Shown: positions 1 to 6,127 of the stretch, piece by piece
How the letters are laid out: every line of letters starts with the position of its first letter
Numbering within the stretch: position 1 is the first letter of the stretch
DNA from: Naegleria gruberi
Lineage: Eukaryota
DNA length: 6,127 nucleotides
Direction: 5' to 3' (one strand)
NCBI GenBank assembly: GCA_000004985.1
Contig: GG739156.1
Program-made: the position numbers and the translations under genes
The notes under the pieces: generated by a model
Told to the model about the DNA's origin: nothing
What the model saw: only the letters and a program-made list of their open reading frames with translations
The model's database searches: none

Positions 1-17
1 TATTATTATTATTATAA
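1..17. repeat. (TAT)n / (AAT)n trinucleotide microsatellite at the window edge
   Basis: The window opens with 'tattattattattata'. On the minus strand this sits in frame inside NFS1 exon 2 and encodes a run of Asn residues ('...DQFYNNNN'). The repeat probably continues beyond the window start. Confidence 0.6.
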
Positions 18-423
18 AATTGATCTAAACACACCTTGATTGCATAATTATTACTTTCTGTTCCTCCACTGTTTTACAGTGTGTCATTCATAATTTGCAT
101 TAAAAAACAAACCTCGTAAAAATCACCTCATCGGGATGACAATTCAACAATTGGGAAACTTGAATACGTGATCGTGTGACTGCCTTCTTAGTAATAGTGC
201 CGTAGTGATGAGACGAAGATGGATTGCCAAAATGTTGGGTCATGTATGGAATCATTGCAGAGGAGACTGCAACATCTATTGGTGTGGTAGCATTATAGTC
301 CAAGTAGATGAGCGACATTTTTTTAATTTGGTTATTGAATAGAGTAAAATTGTTGATTATGTATTCAGTTGGAGAATTGAAACAGTTAAATAGTTTAGGC
401 ATTGTAACAATAATATTAGCCAT
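1..423 (-). CDS. NFS1: Cysteine desulfurase (NifS/IscS/Nfs1 family), 5' part of the gene. Exon 1 is 423..113; a GT-AG intron spans 112..69; exon 2 is 68..1 and runs off the window edge.
   Basis: The translation 'MSLIYLDYNATTPIDVAVSSAMIPYMTQHFGNPSSSHHYGTITKKAVTRSRIQVSQLLNCHPDEVIFT' is the classic N-terminal PLP-enzyme motif block of NifS/IscS/NFS1 (compare 'LYLDxQATTPxDPRV...GNPHSRTH...EAxxxAR.QVA.LI.A...EIIFTSGATESNN'). The un-spliced ORF stops after 'VIFTRFVF'. Removing 44 nt (minus-strand AG|GTTTGT...AAAACAG|T) restores the frame to 'SGGTESNNYAIKVCLDQFYNNNN', which matches the conserved 'TSGATESNNLAIKGVAHFY' continuation. The first ATG is at 423..421 in an A-rich context; 35 residues precede the conserved core and are a possible targeting extension. 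Standard code, no internal stops. Confidence 0.85.
69..112 (-). other. Spliceosomal intron (44 nt, GT...AG) in NFS1
   Basis: The minus-strand sequence 'gtttgttttttaatgcaaattatgaatgacacactgtaaaacag' lies between 'ACG AG' and 'T GGA GGA ACA GAA AGT AAT AAT'. Its removal is needed to join two segments that both match conserved NifS sequence. Its length is not a multiple of 3, and the reading-through frame hits a stop at 100..102. Confidence 0.75.
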
Positions 424-468
424 TAAATATATTGAGGAGTTGGGAGAATTGACTCTAAATCTAAACCC

Positions 469-771
469 ATGAAATCTTTAAACGATTTGAAATTGAACTG
501 TTGGTTAAGTTTACTATCTTATATTAGCACAAATTTGAATCTATTAAGCAAGGGAGAATTAGAACGGGAATTTGTGCTCGGTTTTGCAAACAAGATACGA
601 TCTATGGTTCAAGAATATGATTCTTCTTTGGATTATCTTTTGAAGGTTCCGTGTTATGTTTCTACTGCTGTCGAGGGTTTCAATTTCGATAATTGTCGTA
701 AAATATTCATCGATATACATGAAAAAGAAAGAAACATGTCAAGAGCAAAAATTGAAAAAAAATCAAAGTAG
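469..771 (+). CDS. Hypothetical small ORF (100 aa) with a real ATG at 469 and an A-rich context. It may be the first exon of an unresolved plus-strand gene, or spurious.
   Basis: ORF-track entry 'MKSLNDLKLNCWLSLL...'. No recognisable family. Its length is within chance expectation for a stop-poor frame. It overlaps ORF 656..940, and a further open frame spans 933..1199. Its start lies only 46 bp from the NFS1 ATG on the opposite strand. Confidence 0.15.
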   Translation: MKSLNDLKLNCWLSLLSYISTNLNLLSKGELEREFVLGFANKIRSMVQEYDSSLDYLLKVPCYVSTAVEGFNFDNCRKIFIDIHEKERNMSRAKIEKKSK

Positions 772-1638
772 AAACAAGACGATGCTCTGCATGATGTTGG
801 CAAAAATTATTTCAAAAATAAGTACAGTCTCTATGAGATTGCAACAACAGAATGCTACTTTTCTTCAGCGAAAATTCTATTCAGAAAACGATAGACCGTG
901 GGAGGTGAGAAGGATTGACAAATATTTTATAAAAAATTAAGAAGTCGCTCAAAAAACAAAAATTTGTTAAAGTCGAGCCGAAGGTTTATTGGACCAAGAG
1001 TGAGACAGTGTGTTCAAAGTATCAATTACCACTTGTTCTTCTAGAAACAAGTACTTCTGGGTTCTTGTACATGAACCTTCGCTTTAATGTACCAACAATT
1101 TCAAGTAAATGGGCAGGCACTTATCTAGATGATGTTTTGGTGAGGAAGGAAGCAAAGGGAGAACTCTCCTCATGGTGGCTTCTCAAGGTAGCATGCTGAA
1201 GGTGGGAATACCGACCAATATACCTATTTAGCAGGGTGATGATGAAATCATGATGAGTAATTGTTGTTTGTTGTTTTTTTTTGTTGAATATTTAACGGTC
1301 AGAACAGACAACTTTCAGCGGTTATTGGTTGGCGCGAAATTACCGTGATGTAACATTTTTTAGCTCACCTCCCTCGGTCTAGAAAACGACTTCCTTAATT
1401 ATTCTTGCTTTTAAGCATGAATTAGCAAATTCGATTGTGACTTAATCAGCAATAATTTCTAATTTGGCAAACAAAATTTGAAAGCCTCAATATTCTGTTT
1501 TGGCCGAACATTTATTTTGTTCTTGAAAGATTGAGTTCTCAAAATTTCCCAAAGTTGTATGGTTCACATATTTTGTAAAGTTTATATGGCAAAGATTACC
1601 TTCACTGAAGTAAATAAGCTTCGAAGATAATCTCAATA

Positions 1639-2508
1639 TTAAAATATTAATAATATTGCGATGAATACAAAGAGTAGATATGGAATAAACATATTCACAT
1701 GGGTTGAACATTTAGAAATTGCAACTATTGAGCTACCCACATTTCTATTAGAGGAAGTATAAGTATTAACACTTTTCGAAGGTGTAATAAAAGAAGCAGT
1801 ACTTCCGCTCCAATAAGTCAAATCCAATACTCCATTCGGTAATCCAACATTGGTTGCATAAATTTCATGATTTCCTTCTACAGTAATGATATTAATTCCA
1901 TTTCTCCATAATTGAATATTTGGTTTTCCAGCTTGTAATGGAATAAAGAAAGAATTAATACCACTTGAATTAATCATAAATGTATAATTTGAATTCTCAA
2001 TAATAATTGTTAAAATTGATTGATCTGTTGTAAAGGTCAATACTTCAATTTGATTTGAAACACTTTGTGAAATTCCCATTGTAAAATTACATCCCATATT
2101 AGGTGCATAGGCATTGGTGGCTTCCTTTCTATAAAAATAATAAACAACATCTCTAATAATAGTTGGTTGTAATCCAGTTCTCCACCAATGTGCGTAATAA
2201 GCTGTTAAATCATAAAATCCGTTTCCTGTTGTATTTTGTAAATCAGTAATTGGTTGTAATTGACCACTTTCACTAAAATCATTCCAAGTTGCCACATGAA
2301 CAATATCTGCATTTGTTTGTAAAGTAGACATCCATGCATTTCTATAAGCTAAACTGTTATACGAATCATAGAGTATGCAATCTTTTGGTTTATAAGTTTG
2401 TGGCATCATTCCCAACCAAAATAATAAAGAATTATTAGATTTTGCATTCCTAACAGTTGAAGCATATGCAATAGATGAAGAACCTTGTGTCCTGATCTCA
2501 CTAATAAT
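1639..2508 (-). CDS. Glycoside hydrolase family 71 (alpha-1,3-glucanase / mutanase)-like, C-terminal half only. It ends in a GPI-anchor-like signal; the N-terminal catalytic half is absent. Candidate truncated gene or pseudogene.
   Basis: The translation contains 'ADIVHVATWNDFSESGQLQP'. This matches the GH71 signature 'VEIVTWNDYGESHYVGP' that I recall from fungal mutanases such as Trichoderma MutA. The downstream blocks are also colinear with that sequence ('...FIPLQAGKPNIQLWRNGINI...' versus '...FQIPASIGQQKFALTRNGQTV...'). The ORF-track start at 2415 is a TTG, not ATG; the first in-frame ATG is at 2409..2407. The frame stays open upstream to 2508, where a 3' splice-acceptor-like 'ccttgtcttag|' precedes it. 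The stop is at 1641..1639. The C-terminus 'SSNRNVGSSIVAISKCSTHVNMFIPYLLFVFIAILLIF' is a Ser-rich omega region followed by a hydrophobic tail. Only about 170 nt, with no ATG, separate this exon from the stop of the upstream CHAT gene on the same strand, so roughly 200 residues of the GH71 barrel have nowhere to be encoded. Confidence 0.7.
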   Translation of the reverse strand: MISEIRTQGSSSIAYASTVRNAKSNNSLLFWLGMMPQTYKPKDCILYDSYNSLAYRNAWMSTLQTNADIVHVATWNDFSESGQLQPITDLQNTTGNGFYDLTAYYAHWWRTGLQPTIIRDVVYYFYRKEATNAYAPNMGCNFTMGISQSVSNQIEVLTFTTDQSILTIIIENSNYTFMINSSGINSFFIPLQAGKPNIQLWRNGINIITVEGNHEIYATNVGLPNGVLDLTYWSGSTASFITPSKSVNTYTSSNRNVGSSIVAISKCSTHVNMFIPYLLFVFIAILLIF

Positions 2509-2683
2509 CTAAGACAAGGTTGCACAAAATAGACAAGAATAAACTAATATGTTTGTGTAATGTCCGTATTCTAGTATGAGAATCATCATGTGAATAGGAT
2601 GTATTGAGAGCTGGCTTTTCTTCTAGAAGATGTGCAACCAATACTCTTACATTATCAAACTAAGTACCACAGTGAATTTTCAA

Positions 2684-5113
2684 TTAATGGTTATTTTCAA
2701 AAGAAGGGTTCAAATATCCCCATACTTGTATGCTGCCCCATGTGTTAACTGAACCCCAAACTTGTTTTTTCTTTTTGTTTTGTAGAATGGCACTACGAAT
2801 ACTACTTCCTACATCCATGTTTGTTGTTGTCAAACACTTATAGAAATCGGACATAAGTATTCTCATGTAAGCATCATTTACTTCAGAACCCGTTGAAATA
2901 ACACAATCAACACCTGAAATCAATGCATTATAAACAAATCCCAATAATCCTTCTCCTGGTACATATTTCCCTTTACCAGAGTTACAGGAAGAAAATACCA
3001 CGAGTTTGATTTTGGATAAACATTTCTCACCAAAAGAAGTTGCATGTAAAAATTGCTTTCCATTTCTAAACAATTGTCCTGTTGCCATAAACTCATTTCC
3101 CTTTAGCCAAGAAAGTATGGTATCTTGAAAATTTTCTCCTTCCATCAATTCACTTGTTGCGTTAGAATGCATAGCTAAGTGAACAACATTGCATTCTTCG
3201 AGGTTCTCAGCTTTAGAGTAACACTGAACACCTCGGCCCATTAGAGTTTCTTTAATGCTATTAGATTCATGAATTGAATGTTTCAAATCTTCAGAATCCA
3301 GAATACATGCTGTTTTTATATTATCCTTTCCAACCTTCTTTGTGGGTGGAAATGTGGAAAATGATATCTTGTATTTCTCAATCAAAAAATTTCCATCTTT
3401 GTCTCTCAGTGCAAAAAATGGAAAAAAAGCTTCAGCACCATCTGAAGGCAGAATAATAATCTCATGTTTTAACTCTTCTTCGATAGGTTCTATCAATTTA
3501 GAATATAACAGTTGGAGATGTTTTTGTGTATAGTTTGATGGGTCAGAAAATAATTTGTTAACTTCAAAATCAAGTCGTTTCACTTTAACAATGGAGCCCT
3601 TGATGGTATAAATATACAAATCATCATTAAAAAAACTATATGCAATGATGCACAAATCAGGATCAAGTTTGGATTGAGTGTTGAAAAATCCCTTTACGCT
3701 GTCTAAATCTGTACAGTTAAATCTTGTCATTGACATTTTGACGATAAATGCTTCCTTGTATGACCTATTTTGTACTAAATATCTTTCATAATTTAACATA
3801 GGACCGTAAAAGCGACTTTGACATCCAAGGTTGTCTTTGGATTGTTTGAGTTCTGATAGATAGTTTTCATAATTCTCCTTCAAATATTGACTGTTGTTAT
3901 ATGATGAAACAAACGATACATTATTCGAAGCTATTCTGATTGAATGGTCATCGTTTAAAAGTATCGCCTCACCTAGTGCCATTTTAGCTAAATTAGAAGC
4001 CACCATAAAGTACTTGTTTTCAAAACAATATAATGCATAGGTAGTCAAAAATGAAGTTTTGTAATGACGAGTGAAAGTATAGGCTCTTTTTAAACAAATA
4101 TCAGCAAAATATTCCAGTCTATTTCTATAATGGGCCAAACGTAATCTAGAGTAAATATTAAAACAAATGACAAAATAGCTATTGATAATTTCATCTCGTG
4201 TAAGTGATACTGGTGCATGTTCAACACCTTGAATTTTACCCATAATTACTGGTATAACATGTTCAGTGATACTAATGGCCTGCTCATGTCTTCCCAAAAA
4301 TGACAATATCTCGGCTCTTTTTAGCAAACTTAGAGTGTTAACGGGAGGTGAAGTGTCACAACATTGTGTTATAATAGTAAATAATGAATAGGCCTTTTGA
4401 ATATGATTTTTGGTAAACAAGTAGTCTGCAAATATGTATAGAGTATTCATTTTGTCCGTTTCAGTTGAAAAATTGACTTTTTCAAATCTCATTATCTCTT
4501 TAATAAATGATTCCACTGTCTTGTAGTCATGTTGGTTTTGATACATTGAAATTAGGTTTGTATAATAAGTTAATTTCGAATAAGGATACATTAAAGTACA
4601 TAATTTCCATTCTTCTGTATCTTTAAATTCATTTGCTTTGAGCTTGTTAAATAATAGTTCTCCCCTTTGAAACACTCCATCTATTCGTGATGATCGAATA
4701 TATTTATATCTCTTGCTTTTTAACCATTCTTTTTCTCCCTTGTTCTCGAATATTTGTATCTCAATATCTCTCAATTTGCACAATGTTGAAAATCTTGTTT
4801 GTTGGAGTTGACGAAAATTACTACTCCATTTGATTTTACAATTAGTTAATAATTCGAAATTGCATGTAACAATACTCCAAAGAGATTCATTGTCTTGAAT
4901 AGTAAGTGTCAACAATGACAATACCTGCAAAATTTTGCCTTCATTAGATTGTAAATGTTTAGCATACAACCAACACCGTTCAAACTCTTTTTTACGGTAA
5001 TAACAAATAGCAATAAACTTCATGAGTTCATCATTAGAATATTTGCCTCCCTTTGCTTGTTGGTAAACTTCTATTGCTTTACTAAAATCTTTCTTGGTGT
5101 AGTGTTGGTGCAT
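2684..5113 (-). CDS. TPR-like repeat / CHAT-domain protein (caspase-like CD-clan cysteine protease), 809 aa, intronless
   Basis: A single uninterrupted 2430-nt ORF, extremely unlikely by chance in AT-rich DNA. The ATG is at 5113..5111, preceded by 'gtaaaaaaATG' and an in-frame stop 4 codons upstream; TAA is at 2686..2684. The C-terminal ~280 aa match CHAT block by block: 'LQLLYSKLIEPIEEELKHEIIILPSDGAEAFFPFFALRDKDGNFLIEKYKISF' (compare 'LYDLLIAPIEAEL...LVIVPDGALHYLPFAAL...YLIERYPISY'); the catalytic His in 'VVHLAMHS' (compare 'LHLATHG'); the catalytic Cys in 'LVVFSSCNSG' (compare 'LVVLSACETG'); 'GEGLLGFVYNALISGVDCVISTGSEVNDAYMRILMSDFY' (compare '[39 protein letters not shown]'); and a terminal '..TWGSIQVWGYL' (compare 'PYYWAAFVLIG'). 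The N-terminal ~480 aa are helical with TPR-like periodicity. Confidence 0.85.
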   Translation of the reverse strand: MHQHYTKKDFSKAIEVYQQAKGGKYSNDELMKFIAICYYRKKEFERCWLYAKHLQSNEGKILQVLSLLTLTIQDNESLWSIVTCNFELLTNCKIKWSSNFRQLQQTRFSTLCKLRDIEIQIFENKGEKEWLKSKRYKYIRSSRIDGVFQRGELLFNKLKANEFKDTEEWKLCTLMYPYSKLTYYTNLISMYQNQHDYKTVESFIKEIMRFEKVNFSTETDKMNTLYIFADYLFTKNHIQKAYSLFTIITQCCDTSPPVNTLSLLKRAEILSFLGRHEQAISITEHVIPVIMGKIQGVEHAPVSLTRDEIINSYFVICFNIYSRLRLAHYRNRLEYFADICLKRAYTFTRHYKTSFLTTYALYCFENKYFMVASNLAKMALGEAILLNDDHSIRIASNNVSFVSSYNNSQYLKENYENYLSELKQSKDNLGCQSRFYGPMLNYERYLVQNRSYKEAFIVKMSMTRFNCTDLDSVKGFFNTQSKLDPDLCIIAYSFFNDDLYIYTIKGSIVKVKRLDFEVNKLFSDPSNYTQKHLQLLYSKLIEPIEEELKHEIIILPSDGAEAFFPFFALRDKDGNFLIEKYKISFSTFPPTKKVGKDNIKTACILDSEDLKHSIHESNSIKETLMGRGVQCYSKAENLEECNVVHLAMHSNATSELMEGENFQDTILSWLKGNEFMATGQLFRNGKQFLHATSFGEKCLSKIKLVVFSSCNSGKGKYVPGEGLLGFVYNALISGVDCVISTGSEVNDAYMRILMSDFYKCLTTTNMDVGSSIRSAILQNKKKKQVWGSVNTWGSIQVWGYLNPSFENNH
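2714..3556 (-). other. CHAT protease domain (approximately residues 520-800). The predicted catalytic His649 codon is 3167..3169 and the Cys710 codon is 2984..2986.
   Basis: The motif alignment is described under the CDS. 'HLAMHS' maps to plus-strand 'agaatgcatagctaagtg' (3164..3181), and 'FSSCNSG' maps to 'accagagttacaggaagaaaa' (2975..2995). The dyad spacing of about 60 residues is typical of CHAT/caspase-fold proteases. The His is followed by Ser rather than the more usual Gly. Confidence 0.75.
3674..5113 (-). other. N-terminal alpha-helical, TPR-like repeat region of the CHAT protein (approximately residues 1-480)
   Basis: Recurrent ~34-residue units with W/L/Y/A/F patterning, e.g. 'AIEVYQQAKGGKYSNDELMKFIAICYYRKKEFERCWLYAKHLQ' and 'AYSLFTIITQ...AEILSFLGRHEQAISITEHV'. 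This was inferred by eye and not matched to an HMM. Confidence 0.4.
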
Positions 5114-5233
5114 TTTTTTACACCTCTACTTGGAGCTCTGTGAAGAAATAAAGTTGCGTAAATTTTTTTTACAGGTTATTTTTAGCCGTTATTACGAATT
5201 GACAGGCTTGTGATTGTCAAGTTGATCAAAAAA
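5114..5233. promoter_or_regulatory. Divergent intergenic/promoter region between the CHAT gene (minus strand, ATG 5113) and the plus-strand gene (candidate ATG 5234). A TATA-like 'CTAAAAATAA' lies on the minus strand at about 5185..5176.
   Basis: The region is 120 bp, has no ORF, and contains T/A homopolymer runs ('cattttttta', 'aatttttttt', 'caaaaaaatg'). The TATA-like element sits ~65-75 bp upstream of the CHAT ATG. Both flanking ATGs are in A-rich Kozak-like contexts. Confidence 0.25.
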
Positions 5234-5265
5234 ATGATTGAAATAATCTATTGCTCTCTCAGTGA

Positions 5266-5910
5266 AAACGGTTCGGATGTGCTGGTGCAGGTGCTGATAA
5301 CCACGATTTTTCTCTCCTCCAAAATGTACAGGTATTTGGGGATGAAGATGAATCTCCTTTGGAAATCCAATGGGATCATTTCACAGCTACCATCAAATCG
5401 GCCAATGGTTATGAAGAACTAACACTCAAATTGGATGGAGTTGAAAAGAAAGTGAGTGTTCCCAGTGAAGACGAGGTAAGAGCTCCTCCTAATTCTTTCA
5501 AAGATGCGAAGTGTAAAAACCGTGTAGGAAATAATGAACAAATTAAAATCTACAAGGAGGCGGTGAGGACATATAAAAACAAGGAGAAAGAGATGGGTTT
5601 GGGTGATTGCTCCAACAGAGAATATCTTGATAAAATTGAACGATTAGGAACAGGGAATCACGATGATATAAAGTTAGTGGTGAAGAATCGTGAAATAGCT
5701 GACAACTCACAAACTTCTCCCCAACAGCACTACTTGAAGCGTGGTGACAAATGTGAGTTGGTATCAAAAGAGGACGACCAACAAGAATGCCATAAATCTA
5801 TTACAAGACAGTTTCAAAACCAAGACAAGAAACTGGATATCGAAAAATCAAACCACGTCGAATATGGGAGGTTGATCGATGAACAGTTACAAAAGCACAG
5901 AAGGAAATAA
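5266..5910 (+). CDS. Hypothetical Lys/Glu/Asp-rich protein. The long open frame ends at TAA 5908..5910. The 5' exon or exons are unresolved, with a candidate first exon starting at ATG 5234 in a different frame.
   Basis: The frame runs 215 codons with no stop in roughly 30% GC DNA, for which chance expectation is negligible. It encodes '...FGDEDESPLEIQWDHFTATIKSANGYEELTLKLDGVEKKVSVPSEDE...KEKEMGLGDC...KSITRQFQNQDKKLDIEKSNHVEYGRLIDEQLQKHRRK'. There is no ATG in this frame before 'MGLGDC', and the ORF-track start at 5359 is a TTG. The ATG at 5234 ('caaaaaaATGa') opens a different frame (5234..5422). An intron whose length is 2 mod 3 (3n+2) would therefore be needed to join the two frames. There is no family-level recognition. 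Confidence 0.4.
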   Translation, partial: KRFGCAGAGADNHDFSLLQNVQVFGDEDESPLEIQWDHFTATIKSANGYEELTLKLDGVEKKVSVPSEDEVRAPPNSFKDAKCKNRVGNNEQIKIYKEAVRTYKNKEKEMGLGDCSNREYLDKIERLGTGNHDDIKLVVKNREIADNSQTSPQQHYLKRGDKCELVSKEDDQQECHKSITRQFQNQDKKLDIEKSNHVEYGRLIDEQLQKHRRK

Positions 5911-6127
5911 ATTACATTTTAAATTATTTGCGTTCTACACTGCCTTATTATACTATTGTCGGCAAAAGTTTCAAATGGTTAGAAACTCATTCAGTGATTT
6001 TCATTGACAAATATCACATCAACATATACAAATTTAGCTAAAGACCTGCAAATCATCTTGGTTAAAACACTCACTTCCAACAAATTTTCAATAAACACAA
6101 TCCAAAACAATTCTATTTACCTATTCC

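What the first reader, a model, noticed from the sequence alone, without database searches (positions are those of the whole stretch)
1639..2683. GH71 alpha-1,3-glucanase gene reduced to its C-terminal half, 170 bp downstream of the CHAT gene on the same strand
The homology of the 1639..2508 exon to GH71 is strong ('TWNDFSES' plus colinear downstream blocks). However, the segment corresponds only to about the last 290 residues of a ~450+ residue catalytic domain. The open frame begins at an acceptor-like 'ccttgtcttag|' at 2509..2511. A GTAAGA donor-like site is present at 2650..2645, which would give a 139-nt intron, but the 33 nt between that donor and the CHAT stop codon contain no ATG, and every frame there has a stop. 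The CHAT ORF occupies everything further upstream. The N-terminal half of the (beta/alpha)8 barrel is therefore missing from the locus. I see three possibilities. First, a GH71 gene was truncated, for example by insertion or rearrangement that brought in the CHAT gene, and is now a pseudogene. Second, the remnant is transcribed as part of the CHAT 3' UTR or as a read-through transcript. Third, the assembly is chimeric at about 2510..2690. The intact GPI signal and the absence of frame disruptions argue that the event is recent or that the fragment is still expressed.
Basis: partly seen in the sequence, partly recalled or inferred. Interest (0 to 1): 0.55.

Follow-up and report, generated by a model that had tools for sequence, protein, structure and literature searches.

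The report
Truncated spare copy of Naegleria GH71
This is the back half of a sugar-cutting enzyme gene (GH71) in the amoeba Naegleria gruberi, a nearly identical but beheaded copy of a complete gene found elsewhere in the same genome, so it is an ordinary partial gene duplicate or possibly an assembly artefact.

Summary
The window is a complete 6127-bp Naegleria gruberi scaffold. On the minus strand, 2508..1642 is an open 289-codon frame that matches only the C-terminal half of GH71. No frame of the scaffold encodes the N-terminal half.

A complete copy exists. N. gruberi NAEGRDRAFT_63971 (561 aa, on a 938-kb scaffold) has a signal peptide, a full GH71 domain and the same C-terminal tail. The window carries its residues 280-561, with 3 substitutions and one extra Tyr. 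GenBank already annotates the fragment as NAEGRDRAFT_76791 (255 aa).

A metagenome contig from a close relative (L001) holds the full gene as one uninterrupted ORF. It is about 98.5% identical to the window from 2490 downstream and unrelated upstream. The breakpoint is therefore 2491|2490. The "acceptor" at 2509-2511 is only a stop codon in unrelated spacer, and no intron is involved.

The fragment keeps the catalytic Asp/Glu, two of the eight barrel units and the whole beta-sandwich. It has no start codon with a signal peptide. dN/dS against L001 is 0.115, so the truncation is recent or the copy is kept similar to the intact gene.

Best reading: a 5'-truncated partial duplicate or haplotype variant that is inactive as an enzyme. 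An assembly chimera cannot be excluded. Interest is low.

The parts
1639..2490 (-). Retained 3' half of the GH71 coding sequence, including the TAA stop at 1641-1639. It equals residues 280-561 of N. gruberi NAEGRDRAFT_63971.
   Evidence: 98.6% protein identity to P0190 (3 substitutions plus 1 inserted Tyr). About 98.5% nucleotide identity to the L001 coding sequence (13 substitutions and one 3-nt indel). Family HMM positions 243-463 of 469.
2269..2280 (-). Codons for the GH71 catalytic dyad, Asp77...Glu80 of the frame, within TWNDFSES.
   Evidence: Invariant D and E in alignments A1 and A2. They correspond to the general base and general acid D265/E268 of AnGH71C (PMC12394665). The Agn1 D-to-N variant structure 9m6l aligns at the same Asp.
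1642..1791 (-). Naegleria-specific C-terminal extension: a Ser/Thr-rich linker followed by a 17-residue hydrophobic end, which looks like a GPI signal or tail anchor.
   Evidence: Absent from the bacterial homologues, which end shortly after LDLTYWSGS. Present in P0190 and P0040. AF2 predicts residues 242-263 disordered and a helix at 270-288. All window-specific amino-acid changes lie here.
2490..2491 (-). Breakpoint between the GH71-derived sequence and unrelated sequence.
   Evidence: The MAFFT/blastn alignment with L001 is near-identical from 2490 downwards and unrelated above it. A local alignment of 2491-2700 against L001 1-1237 scores no better than shuffles.
2491..2683 (-). 193-nt spacer forming the 3' flank of the CHAT gene. 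It contains 6 in-frame non-homologous codons (2508-2491), the TAG at 2511-2509, a 26-codon mini-ORF (2589-2512) and GTAAGA at 2650-2645.
   Evidence: No GH71 signal in any frame. No similarity to the 5' half or the upstream region of the full-length gene. The mini-ORF is not related to the true signal peptide.
2684..5113 (-). CHAT-domain/TPR gene NAEGRDRAFT_76792. The ORF is 809 codons, but GenBank annotates only 588 aa.
   Evidence: Pfam CHAT E=1.6e-22. 100% identical to P0037 on a 6127-bp contig. Its 90%-identity cluster has a single member.
1458..1638 (-). 3' flank of GH71, colinear with the flank of the full-length gene in L001.
   Evidence: Aligned with L001 2087-2235, with a few mismatches and two indels of 20 and 12 nt.
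892..1381 (.). 490-bp MITE-like insertion with 18-bp terminal inverted repeats and an 8-bp target-site duplication TCGTTTTC (1389-1382 and 891-884). It is specific to this copy relative to L001.
   Evidence: Inverted repeat I2. The empty site is visible in L001.
4..889 (-). Further downstream region colinear with the relative's full-length locus. It holds a small unknown gene region and the 5' end of a NifS-like class-V aminotransferase gene.
   Evidence: L001 2272-2831 matches window 889-628. L002 17-686 matches window 675-4 at 97.8%. L002 overlaps the end of L001 by 64 identical nt. Pfam Aminotran_5.

Best explanation
Window 2490..1639 (minus strand) is a 5'-truncated, near-identical second copy of the N. 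gruberi GH71 gene NAEGRDRAFT_63971. That gene encodes a secreted, probably GPI-anchored, bacterial-type GH71 glycosidase (the family of alpha-1,3-glucanases).

Shown here:
- A block of at least 2.5 kb (the GH71 3' half, its 3' flank, a small gene region and the start of a NifS-like gene) is colinear with the locus that carries the full-length gene in a close relative.
- At 2491|2490, which corresponds to codon 279|280 of the parent, this block abuts unrelated DNA, namely the 3' flank of a CHAT gene.
- It keeps units 7-8 with the catalytic Asp/Glu, the beta-sandwich domain and the C-terminal tail.

Inferred:
- It cannot form the barrel or enter the secretory pathway, so it is a non-functional relic as an enzyme: an unprocessed, truncated duplicate or a null allele.
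- The rearrangement was a deletion, a translocation or a partial segmental duplication.
- The truncated block is either a paralogue or the second haplotype of a heterozygous diploid.
- The event is young relative to the roughly 5% synonymous divergence from the relative, or gene conversion with the intact copy keeps the frame clean.
For: - The window is a whole N. gruberi scaffold. Its CHAT ORF is 100% identical to P0037 on a 6127-bp contig.
- The exhaustive protein search finds P0040 (558 aa) at 98% identity over query residues 5-289.
- The 90%-identity cluster of P0040 contains P0190 (XP_002680766.1, NAEGRDRAFT_63971, 561 aa, on a 938,756-bp scaffold) and P0191 (XP_002668297.1, NAEGRDRAFT_76791, 255 aa, on the 6127-bp contig).
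- P0190 matches Pfam GH71 positions 15-374 of 375, against 207-374 for the window.
- L001 carries the full gene as one ORF at 410-2086.
- blastn and MAFFT alignments with L001 give a sharp breakpoint at window 2490.
- Colinearity downstream continues through L002 to window position 4.
- No part of the N-terminal half is encoded anywhere in six frames of the scaffold.
- The AF2 model of the fragment shows only beta7-alpha7-beta8-alpha8 and the complete beta-sandwich (pLDDT 88-97), then a disordered linker and a terminal helix.
- Nine synonymous against four nonsynonymous differences from L001 give dN/dS 0.115. Neutral evolution of the window lineage since the split is rejected at P about 0.008.
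- GC3 is 0.17, and codon-usage correlation with the neighbouring CHAT gene is r=0.885, so this is native Naegleria DNA and not contamination.
- This copy differs from the parent protein (P0190) by 3 substitutions plus one extra Tyr, so it is a distinct sequence from the main-scaffold copy. It also carries a MITE with a target-site duplication, plus indels, that L001 lacks.
Against: - No reads and no independent assembly were available, so the junction at 2491|2490 rests on one contig of a Sanger draft.
- The DNA of the 938-kb scaffold could not be fetched. I therefore could not check whether its GH71 has the same downstream neighbours, or distinguish a paralogue from an allele.
- The retained 283 codons have no stop or frameshift and show dN/dS well below 1. 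That is unusual for an old pseudogene and would also fit a fragment that is still used.
- GenBank annotates a 255-aa protein from an internal Met.
Confidence: 0.66

Rival explanations
1. Assembly chimera. Positions 1-2490 would be the unmerged second haplotype, or a collapsed repeat copy, of the intact NAEGRDRAFT_63971 locus. It was then wrongly joined to the unrelated unique CHAT region through a chimeric clone or a false overlap. No truncated gene would exist in the cell.
For: - The sequence is a tiny leftover scaffold (6127 bp) of a Sanger draft.
- One side of the junction is a near-duplicate of a main-scaffold gene, and the other side is single-copy (the CHAT cluster has 1 member).
- Naegleria is described as mainly a heterozygous diploid (PMC9928731), so unmerged haplotigs are expected.
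- There is no repeat, target-site duplication or microhomology at the junction that would mark a biological mechanism.
- The relative's metagenome yielded no truncated copy. The P0040 cluster holds only P0040, P0190 and P0191.
Against: - The scaffold has no N and is a single contiguous contig across the junction.
- A haplotig would normally simply end rather than continue 3.6 kb into unique sequence.
- Nothing in the sequence signals an artefact.
- The metagenome assembly is too fragmentary (contigs of 1.4 and 2.8 kb) for its silence to count.
Confidence: 0.22
2. The truncated copy is a working gene for a new, shorter protein of 255-258 aa starting at Met 2409 or 2406. It would consist of a partial barrel, the beta-sandwich and a C-terminal membrane helix acting as a tail anchor, or it would be expressed from CHAT read-through transcripts.
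For: - The frame is intact over 289 codons.
- dN/dS is 0.115.
- The beta-sandwich is predicted confidently on its own.
- A gene model exists in GenBank (P0191).
- All window-specific amino-acid changes lie in the tail and none in the folded part.
Against: - With only 13 substitutions, low dN/dS is equally explained by recent truncation, by allelic status or by gene conversion.
- Two of eight barrel units cannot fold as a barrel. Residues 1-25 and the catalytic loop 75-90 have pLDDT below 50.
- In GH71 the sandwich packs tightly against barrel helices 7-8 and shows no polysaccharide binding of its own (PMC12394665).
- There is no signal peptide.
- The gene model is an automatic prediction.
Confidence: 0.07
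3. Split but complete gene. The 5' half of this GH71 copy would lie beyond the right end of the scaffold, more than 3.6 kb upstream. The CHAT gene would sit in a very large intron or be part of a large insertion, and the halves would be joined by long-range or trans-splicing.
For: - A polypyrimidine tract followed by AG lies at 2519-2509, and further AGs at 2502-2501, 2498-2497 and 2493-2492 lie close to the breakpoint.
- The scaffold ends at 6127, so more distant upstream sequence is unseen.
Against: - The parent gene has no intron at this position (L001 ORF 410-2086).
- The one intron visible in the window is 44 nt long (112..69).
- No GH71 signal exists in 2491-6127 on either strand.
- A same-strand gene with its own stop lies in between.
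Confidence: 0.04

Closest known systems
Naegleria gruberi NAEGRDRAFT_63971 (XP_002680766.1 / EFC48022.1, 561 aa), the intact parent or sister copy
   Same: Residues 280-561 are 98.6% identical to the window frame. This covers the catalytic WNDFSES, the beta-sandwich, the Ser/Thr linker and the hydrophobic C-terminus.
   Different: The intact gene has a start codon, a signal-peptide-like N-terminus (MSAMMFIIKFLIVTICLIQICVHS) and barrel units 1-6, with Pfam GH71 positions 15-374. The window copy lacks all of these. It also has Tyr for Phe twice, Leu for Phe once and one extra Tyr.
Full-length GH71 on ENA metagenome contig ERZ929261 k127_258783 (L001/P0040, 558 aa), from a close Naegleria relative
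   Same: About 98.5% nucleotide identity over the retained coding part. The order GH71, small gene region, NifS-like gene is colinear.
   Different: It has an uninterrupted full-length ORF and different upstream DNA. It lacks the MITE at the position of window 892-1381, and it has indels in the 3' flank.
Proteobacterial GH71 proteins (for example Methylocapsa aurea KYG, Steroidobacteraceae and Myxococcales MAGs)
   Same: These are the nearest relatives outside Naegleria. They are 47-50% identical to the fragment and 47% identical over residues 26-512 of P0190, with the same domain order of barrel then beta-sandwich.
   Different: They are 457-495 aa, GC-rich, and end shortly after LDLTYWSGS without the Ser/Thr linker and hydrophobic tail. 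They are complete, whereas the window fragment is not.
Characterised fungal GH71 alpha-1,3-glucanases (S. pombe Agn1, PDB 8yfh/9m6l; A. nidulans AnGH71C, PDB 9fnf)
   Same: Same family by sequence (P0190 against 8yfh E=1.6e-8). Same catalytic Asp-x-x-Glu after beta8, and the same C-terminal beta-sandwich packed on helices 7-8 (PMC12394665).
   Different: Only distantly related. Substrate and activity of the Naegleria/bacterial clade are untested. The window fragment lacks the region equivalent to roughly Agn1 residues 15-170.
Unprocessed (duplicated) truncated pseudogenes and null structural-variant alleles
   Same: A partial copy of an intact parent gene together with its flanking DNA, lacking the 5' end and the promoter-proximal coding sequence.
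   Different: There are no internal stops or frameshifts yet, and dN/dS is 0.115. It is therefore very young, homogenised, or simply an allele.

Membership tests
Glycoside hydrolase family 71 (Pfam PF03659) | Sequence match above the curated family threshold | tested here: met
   66.5 bits against a cut-off of 34, E=2.5e-18, but covering only profile positions 207-374 of 375.
Glycoside hydrolase family 71 (Pfam PF03659) | [quoted passage not shown] | tested here: not met
   Family HMM positions 1-242 are absent from all six frames of the scaffold. The AF2 model has only beta7-alpha7-beta8-alpha8. The fragment is therefore GH71-derived, not a functional GH71 enzyme.
Glycoside hydrolase family 71 (Pfam PF03659) | Catalytic Asp (general base) and Glu (general acid) at the start of the beta8-alpha8 loop | tested here: met
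   D77 and E80 in TWNDFSES are invariant in alignments A1 and A2. Their roles are taken from AnGH71C D265/E268 (PMC12394665).
Glycoside hydrolase family 71 (Pfam PF03659) | C-terminal beta-sandwich domain packed on the barrel | tested here: met
   Strands across residues 121-238 with pLDDT 88-97. The region aligns to the sandwich of Agn1 and AnGH71C.
Glycoside hydrolase family 71 (Pfam PF03659) | Alpha-1,3-glucan or nigerooligosaccharide hydrolysis | not testable with these tools
   This needs an enzyme assay. Even the intact Naegleria and proteobacterial clade has not been characterised, as far as the papers I searched show (one search found none).
GPI-anchored or secreted surface protein | N-terminal ER signal peptide | tested here: not met
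   The first Met codons are at 2409 and 2406 (MMPQTYKPKD...), which is not hydrophobic. The signal-like N-terminus of P0190 is lost. The upstream 26-codon mini-ORF is cut off by the TAG and is unrelated to the true signal peptide. This was judged by inspection, without a signal-peptide predictor.
GPI-anchored or secreted surface protein | C-terminal small-residue site, polar spacer and terminal hydrophobic stretch | tested here: inconclusive
   The sequence ...AISKCSTHVN followed by MFIPYLLFVFIAILLIF at the very C-terminus fits the pattern and is predicted helical. No GPI predictor was available.
Unprocessed truncated pseudogene or partial duplicate | An intact parent gene exists in the same genome | tested here: met
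   P0190 on the 938,756-bp scaffold, 98.6% identical over the shared 282 residues.
Unprocessed truncated pseudogene or partial duplicate | The copy includes flanking non-coding DNA and lacks part of the coding sequence (not a retrocopy) | tested here: met
   The 3' flank and downstream genes are colinear with L001 and L002. The breakpoint falls at codon 279|280. There is no poly(A) tract.
Unprocessed truncated pseudogene or partial duplicate | Disabling mutations or relaxed constraint in the retained part | tested here: not met
   No stop or frameshift in 283 codons, and dN/dS 0.115. This is compatible with a very recent event, allelic status or gene conversion.
Unprocessed truncated pseudogene or partial duplicate | Not expressed as a functional protein | not testable with these tools
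   No RNA-seq, EST or proteome data were reachable.
   L001 encodes the full 558-aa protein as one continuous ORF. Similarity to it ends at 2490, 18 nt downstream of the proposed acceptor.

The most novel reading that the evidence does not exclude
The beheaded copy is not dead. It would be transcribed, from its own start or as CHAT read-through, and translated from Met 2409 or 2406 into a tail-anchored protein of about 256 aa. That protein would be built from a GH71 beta-sandwich plus a quarter barrel, and would be kept by selection for a non-catalytic role such as glucan binding or modulation of the intact enzyme. It would be a natural example of a new gene born from a partial duplicate of a horizontally acquired bacterial glycosidase.
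Probability: 0.06. Interest if true: 0.45.

Novelty: new member of a known kind. Interest (0 to 1): 0.1.

Why it matters
It matters little beyond genome curation.

- NAEGRDRAFT_76791 should be flagged as a 5'-truncated copy of NAEGRDRAFT_63971, or as a possible misassembly, and not counted as a second GH71 enzyme in CAZyme or pangenome tallies.
- The parent gene is more interesting than the fragment. It is a proteobacterial-type GH71 that has acquired a eukaryotic signal peptide and a GPI-like tail in Naegleria.
- The locus also shows recent structural change (a MITE insertion and a rearrangement) between very close Naegleria genomes.

Tried and rejected
1. N-terminal exons elsewhere in the window. 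tblastn with 36 homologues and an unfiltered family HMM against six-frame translations found nothing for the first 242 positions. The weak tblastn hits at 5750-5424 (E about 2) were not recovered by the HMM.
2. Splice models: a 139-nt intron 2650..2512, or short 36- and 48-nt introns from a GT at 2544. These were rejected because the parent gene is intronless and homology ends at 2490.
3. An internal deletion that kept the original 5' end. The in-frame mini-ORF MMILILEYGHYTNILVYSCLFCATLS (2589-2512) superficially resembles the MMFIIKF... signal peptide. Neither the DNA nor the peptide is more similar than shuffles.
4. A transposon or repeat signature at the junction or around the CHAT gene. 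None was found; the weak 22-nt inverted repeat at 2518-2539 / 2618-2639 is only 73% complementary.
5. Contamination by bacterial DNA. This was rejected on GC3 of 0.17, host-like codon usage and neighbouring genes with introns.
6. Independent confirmation of the junction. Exact-protein look-ups for the CHAT ORF, P0037, P0190, P0191 and the 256- and 258-aa ORFs found no other assembly. Two scans of JGI metagenomes found no Naegleria-like GH71.
7. Whether the left flank is duplicated on the 938-kb scaffold. The search with the NifS-like N-terminus returned only the metagenome copy (P0192) and bacterial proteins. This is inconclusive, because the same word-indexed tool also missed the P0040/P0190/P0191 cluster.
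8. The N. gruberi genome paper (PMID 20211133) is not held in the library.
Full report
**What the window is.** The 809-codon ORF at 5113..2684 (minus strand) carries a CHAT domain (Pfam E=1.6e-22). It is 100% identical to a Naegleria gruberi predicted protein (P0037, NAEGRDRAFT_76792) whose contig is 6127 bp long, exactly the window length. The window is therefore a complete small scaffold of the N. gruberi NEG-M draft. It contains no N. It is AT-rich throughout, with GC 0.28-0.41.

**Checking the observation.** On the minus strand, the frame 2508..1642 is open for 289 codons between the TAG at 2511-2509 and the TAA at 1641-1639. Shuffles of the same bases contain 23 stops on average and never fewer than 9. 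Pfam GH71 matches at E=2.5e-18 but only over profile positions 207-374 of 375.

I built an HMM from 30 full-length homologues and searched the six-frame translations of the scaffold with all filters off. The only real hit covers HMM positions 243-463 of 469 (264 bits, window about 2460..1792). Nothing matches positions 1-242 on either strand, and tblastn with the homologues agrees.

**An intact copy exists.** The word-indexed protein search found only homologues of 47-50% identity and 457-495 aa. The exhaustive search then found P0040, 558 aa and 98% identical over residues 5-289 of the fragment. Its 90%-identity cluster has three members:

| Protein | Source | Length | Contig |
|---|---|---|---|
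| P0040 | ENA metagenome contig | 558 aa | 2831 bp (L001) |
| P0190 (XP_002680766.1, NAEGRDRAFT_63971) | N. gruberi | 561 aa | 938,756-bp scaffold |
| P0191 (XP_002668297.1, NAEGRDRAFT_76791) | N. gruberi | 255 aa | the 6127-bp contig |

P0191 is the existing gene model for this fragment, started at an internal Met. P0190 has a hydrophobic N-terminus, a full GH71 domain (Pfam positions 15-374 of 375) and the same C-terminal tail. The window frame equals its residues 280-561, with three substitutions (two Phe to Tyr, one Phe to Leu) and one extra Tyr. GH71 proteins in this lineage are therefore not naturally short. The window holds a beheaded copy.

**Locating the breakpoint.** The DNA of P0040 (locus L001, 2831 bp, ENA ERZ929261) carries the gene as one uninterrupted ORF at 410-2086. 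Aligned with the window, L001 1238-2235 matches window 2490-1458. Within the coding part there are 13 substitutions and one 3-nt indel. Above 2490 there is no similarity at all. A local alignment of window 2491-2700 against L001 1-1237 scores below the mean of shuffles.

The breakpoint is therefore 2491|2490, which corresponds to codon 279|280 of P0190. The six codons 2508-2491 (IISEIR) and the TAG at 2511-2509 belong to unrelated spacer.

I also tested whether the in-frame 26-codon mini-ORF at 2589-2512 could be the remains of the original signal peptide, which would indicate an internal deletion. It is no more similar than shuffles.

**Extent of the shared block.**
- Downstream of the stop codon the window stays colinear with the relative. 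L001 2248-2278 matches window 1411-1381, L001 2272-2394 matches 889-766, and L001 2738-2831 matches 716-628.
- A second contig from the same metagenome, L002, overlaps the end of L001 by 64 identical nt. It matches window 675-4 at 97.8% and runs into a NifS-like class-V aminotransferase gene.
- In the relative, the order is therefore full-length GH71, small gene region, NifS-like gene. Window 2490..4 is the same block minus the GH71 5' half.
- The one large difference is a 490-bp element at 892-1381. It has 18-bp terminal inverted repeats and an 8-bp target-site duplication, TCGTTTTC, and L001 shows the empty site. It is a MITE insertion private to this copy.

[quoted passage not shown] The general base Asp and general acid Glu sit at the start of the beta8-alpha8 loop (AnGH71C D265/E268; PMC12394665). 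In the fragment these are D77 and E80 (window 2280-2269), invariant in my alignments.

An AlphaFold2 model of the 289-residue frame, built from a 21-sequence alignment, shows these elements:
- strand 31-34, helix 52-64, strand 69-72 and helix 96-111, that is beta7-alpha7-beta8-alpha8;
- a confidently predicted beta-sandwich at residues 121-238 (pLDDT 88-97);
- a disordered linker;
- a terminal helix at 270-288.

Six of the eight barrel units are gone, together with the start codon and the signal peptide. By inference, the product cannot form the cleft. Without an ER signal, the GPI-like C-terminus cannot be used as such.

**How old, and how constrained.** Against L001 there are 9 synonymous and 4 nonsynonymous differences (dS 0.052, dN 0.006, dN/dS 0.115). 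Full neutrality is rejected (P=2.6e-4). So is a model in which the window lineage has been neutral since the split (P about 0.008).

Polarising the amino-acid changes with P0190 gives two substitutions plus the Tyr insertion on the window lineage, all of them in the tail, and two substitutions on the L001 lineage. GC3 is 0.17 and codon usage correlates with the CHAT gene at r=0.885. So this is long-resident Naegleria DNA, and the copy behaved as a constrained coding sequence for most of its separate history. That fits a recent truncation, an allele of a heterozygous diploid (Naegleria is described as mainly a heterozygous diploid, PMC9928731), or homogenisation by gene conversion. It does not by itself show present function.

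**What cannot be decided here.** I could not fetch the DNA of the 938-kb scaffold, any reads, or any independent assembly containing the junction. Exact-protein look-ups failed, and two JGI metagenome scans were empty. Three versions therefore remain open: a true paralogous partial duplication, a haplotype-specific structural variant (a null allele), or an assembly chimera that joins an unmerged haplotig to the unique CHAT region.
- Evidence pointing to a real junction: the contig is gap-free, and the copy differs in sequence from the main-scaffold protein (P0190). It also carries a MITE and indels that L001 lacks, although I could not check whether the main scaffold has them too.
- Evidence pointing to a chimera: it is a 6-kb leftover scaffold, and the CHAT gene is single-copy in the annotation.
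- My estimates: about two-thirds for a real truncated copy, about one-fifth for a chimera, and the remainder for a functional short protein or a split gene.

**Comparison with what is known.**
- The fragment is GH71-derived. It passes the Pfam threshold and keeps the catalytic dyad and the sandwich, but it fails the defining complete barrel. It should not be filed as a GH71 enzyme.
- In kind it is an unprocessed, truncated duplicate. The parent is present, flanking DNA was copied, the 5' coding sequence is missing, and it is not yet degraded.
- The parent clade itself is noteworthy. Outside Naegleria, the nearest relatives are proteobacterial, not fungal: Methylocapsa aurea at 47% over residues 26-512, and Steroidobacteraceae and Myxococcales MAGs. 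In the exhaustive search, no sequence outside the Naegleria cluster exceeds 48% identity.
- The Naegleria proteins add a signal-peptide-like N-terminus and a Ser/Thr-rich linker with a hydrophobic tail that the bacterial proteins lack. This suggests an old bacterium-to-Naegleria transfer followed by adaptation to the eukaryotic secretory pathway. I did not build a phylogeny, so this remains an inference.

**Verdict.** The splice-site details are not. The existence of an intact, nearly identical gene in the same genome makes this an ordinary partial duplicate, null allele or possible misassembly. Interest is low (0.1). In kind, it is a new member of a known category.

Noticed in passing
window 892-1381 (TSD at 1389-1382 and 891-884): A 490-bp MITE-like element (GC 0.39) with 18-bp terminal inverted repeats, TAGACCG[A/T]GGGAGGTGAG (17 of 18 matching), and an 8-bp target-site duplication TCGTTTTC. 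The related contig L001 shows the empty site. The 8-bp duplication length is typical of hAT-type elements. No other copies were searched for.
   Followed up: partly
window 423..1, minus strand (intron 112..69); L002 17-1419: The 5' end of a NifS-like class-V aminotransferase gene, with a 44-nt GT..AG intron inferred from the conserved FTSGGTESNN motif. The nearest relatives are bacterial at about 70% identity. N. gruberi is reported to carry a bacterial-like, horizontally acquired NifS-SPS fusion (PMC4561486), and this may be that gene or a copy of it.
   Followed up: partly
P0190 / L001 410-2086 (parent gene of window 2490..1642): The nearest non-Naegleria relatives of the Naegleria GH71 are proteobacterial, not fungal: Methylocapsa aurea at 47% over almost full length, plus Steroidobacteraceae and Myxococcales MAGs. 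The Naegleria protein adds a signal-peptide-like N-terminus and a GPI-like tail. This is a likely inter-domain gene transfer, but no tree was built.
   Followed up: partly
window 5113..2684, minus strand: The CHAT/TPR ORF is open for 809 codons from ATG 5113. The GenBank model (P0037) starts at an internal Met and has 588 aa. The upstream 221 codons include weak TPR-like matches, so the annotated model may be 5'-short.
   Followed up: no
window 5359-5910, plus strand: A 183-codon Lys/Glu-rich ORF upstream of, and divergent from, the CHAT gene. It has no Pfam match. Its function and whether it is a real gene are unknown.
   Followed up: no
window 717-889 versus L001 2272-2737: Divergence from the relative is very uneven. 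It is about 1.5% in GH71 but about 25% over window 889-766. L001 also has roughly 340 nt where the window has about 50 (716-766). This marks a fast-evolving or rearranged stretch within the small plus-strand ORF region at 469-940.
   Followed up: no
L001 and L002 (ENA ERZ929261, run ERR1078381, project PRJEB11402): This public metagenome assembly contains DNA of an organism 98% identical to N. gruberi NEG-M. Its contigs can serve as an outgroup or second strain for N. gruberi loci. The nature of the sample was not looked up.
   Followed up: no
tool behaviour: The word-indexed homologue search missed the cluster holding a 98-100% identical protein (P0040/P0190/P0191). The exhaustive representative search found it. 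Negative results from the word-indexed tool, such, should therefore be treated as weak.
   Followed up: yes
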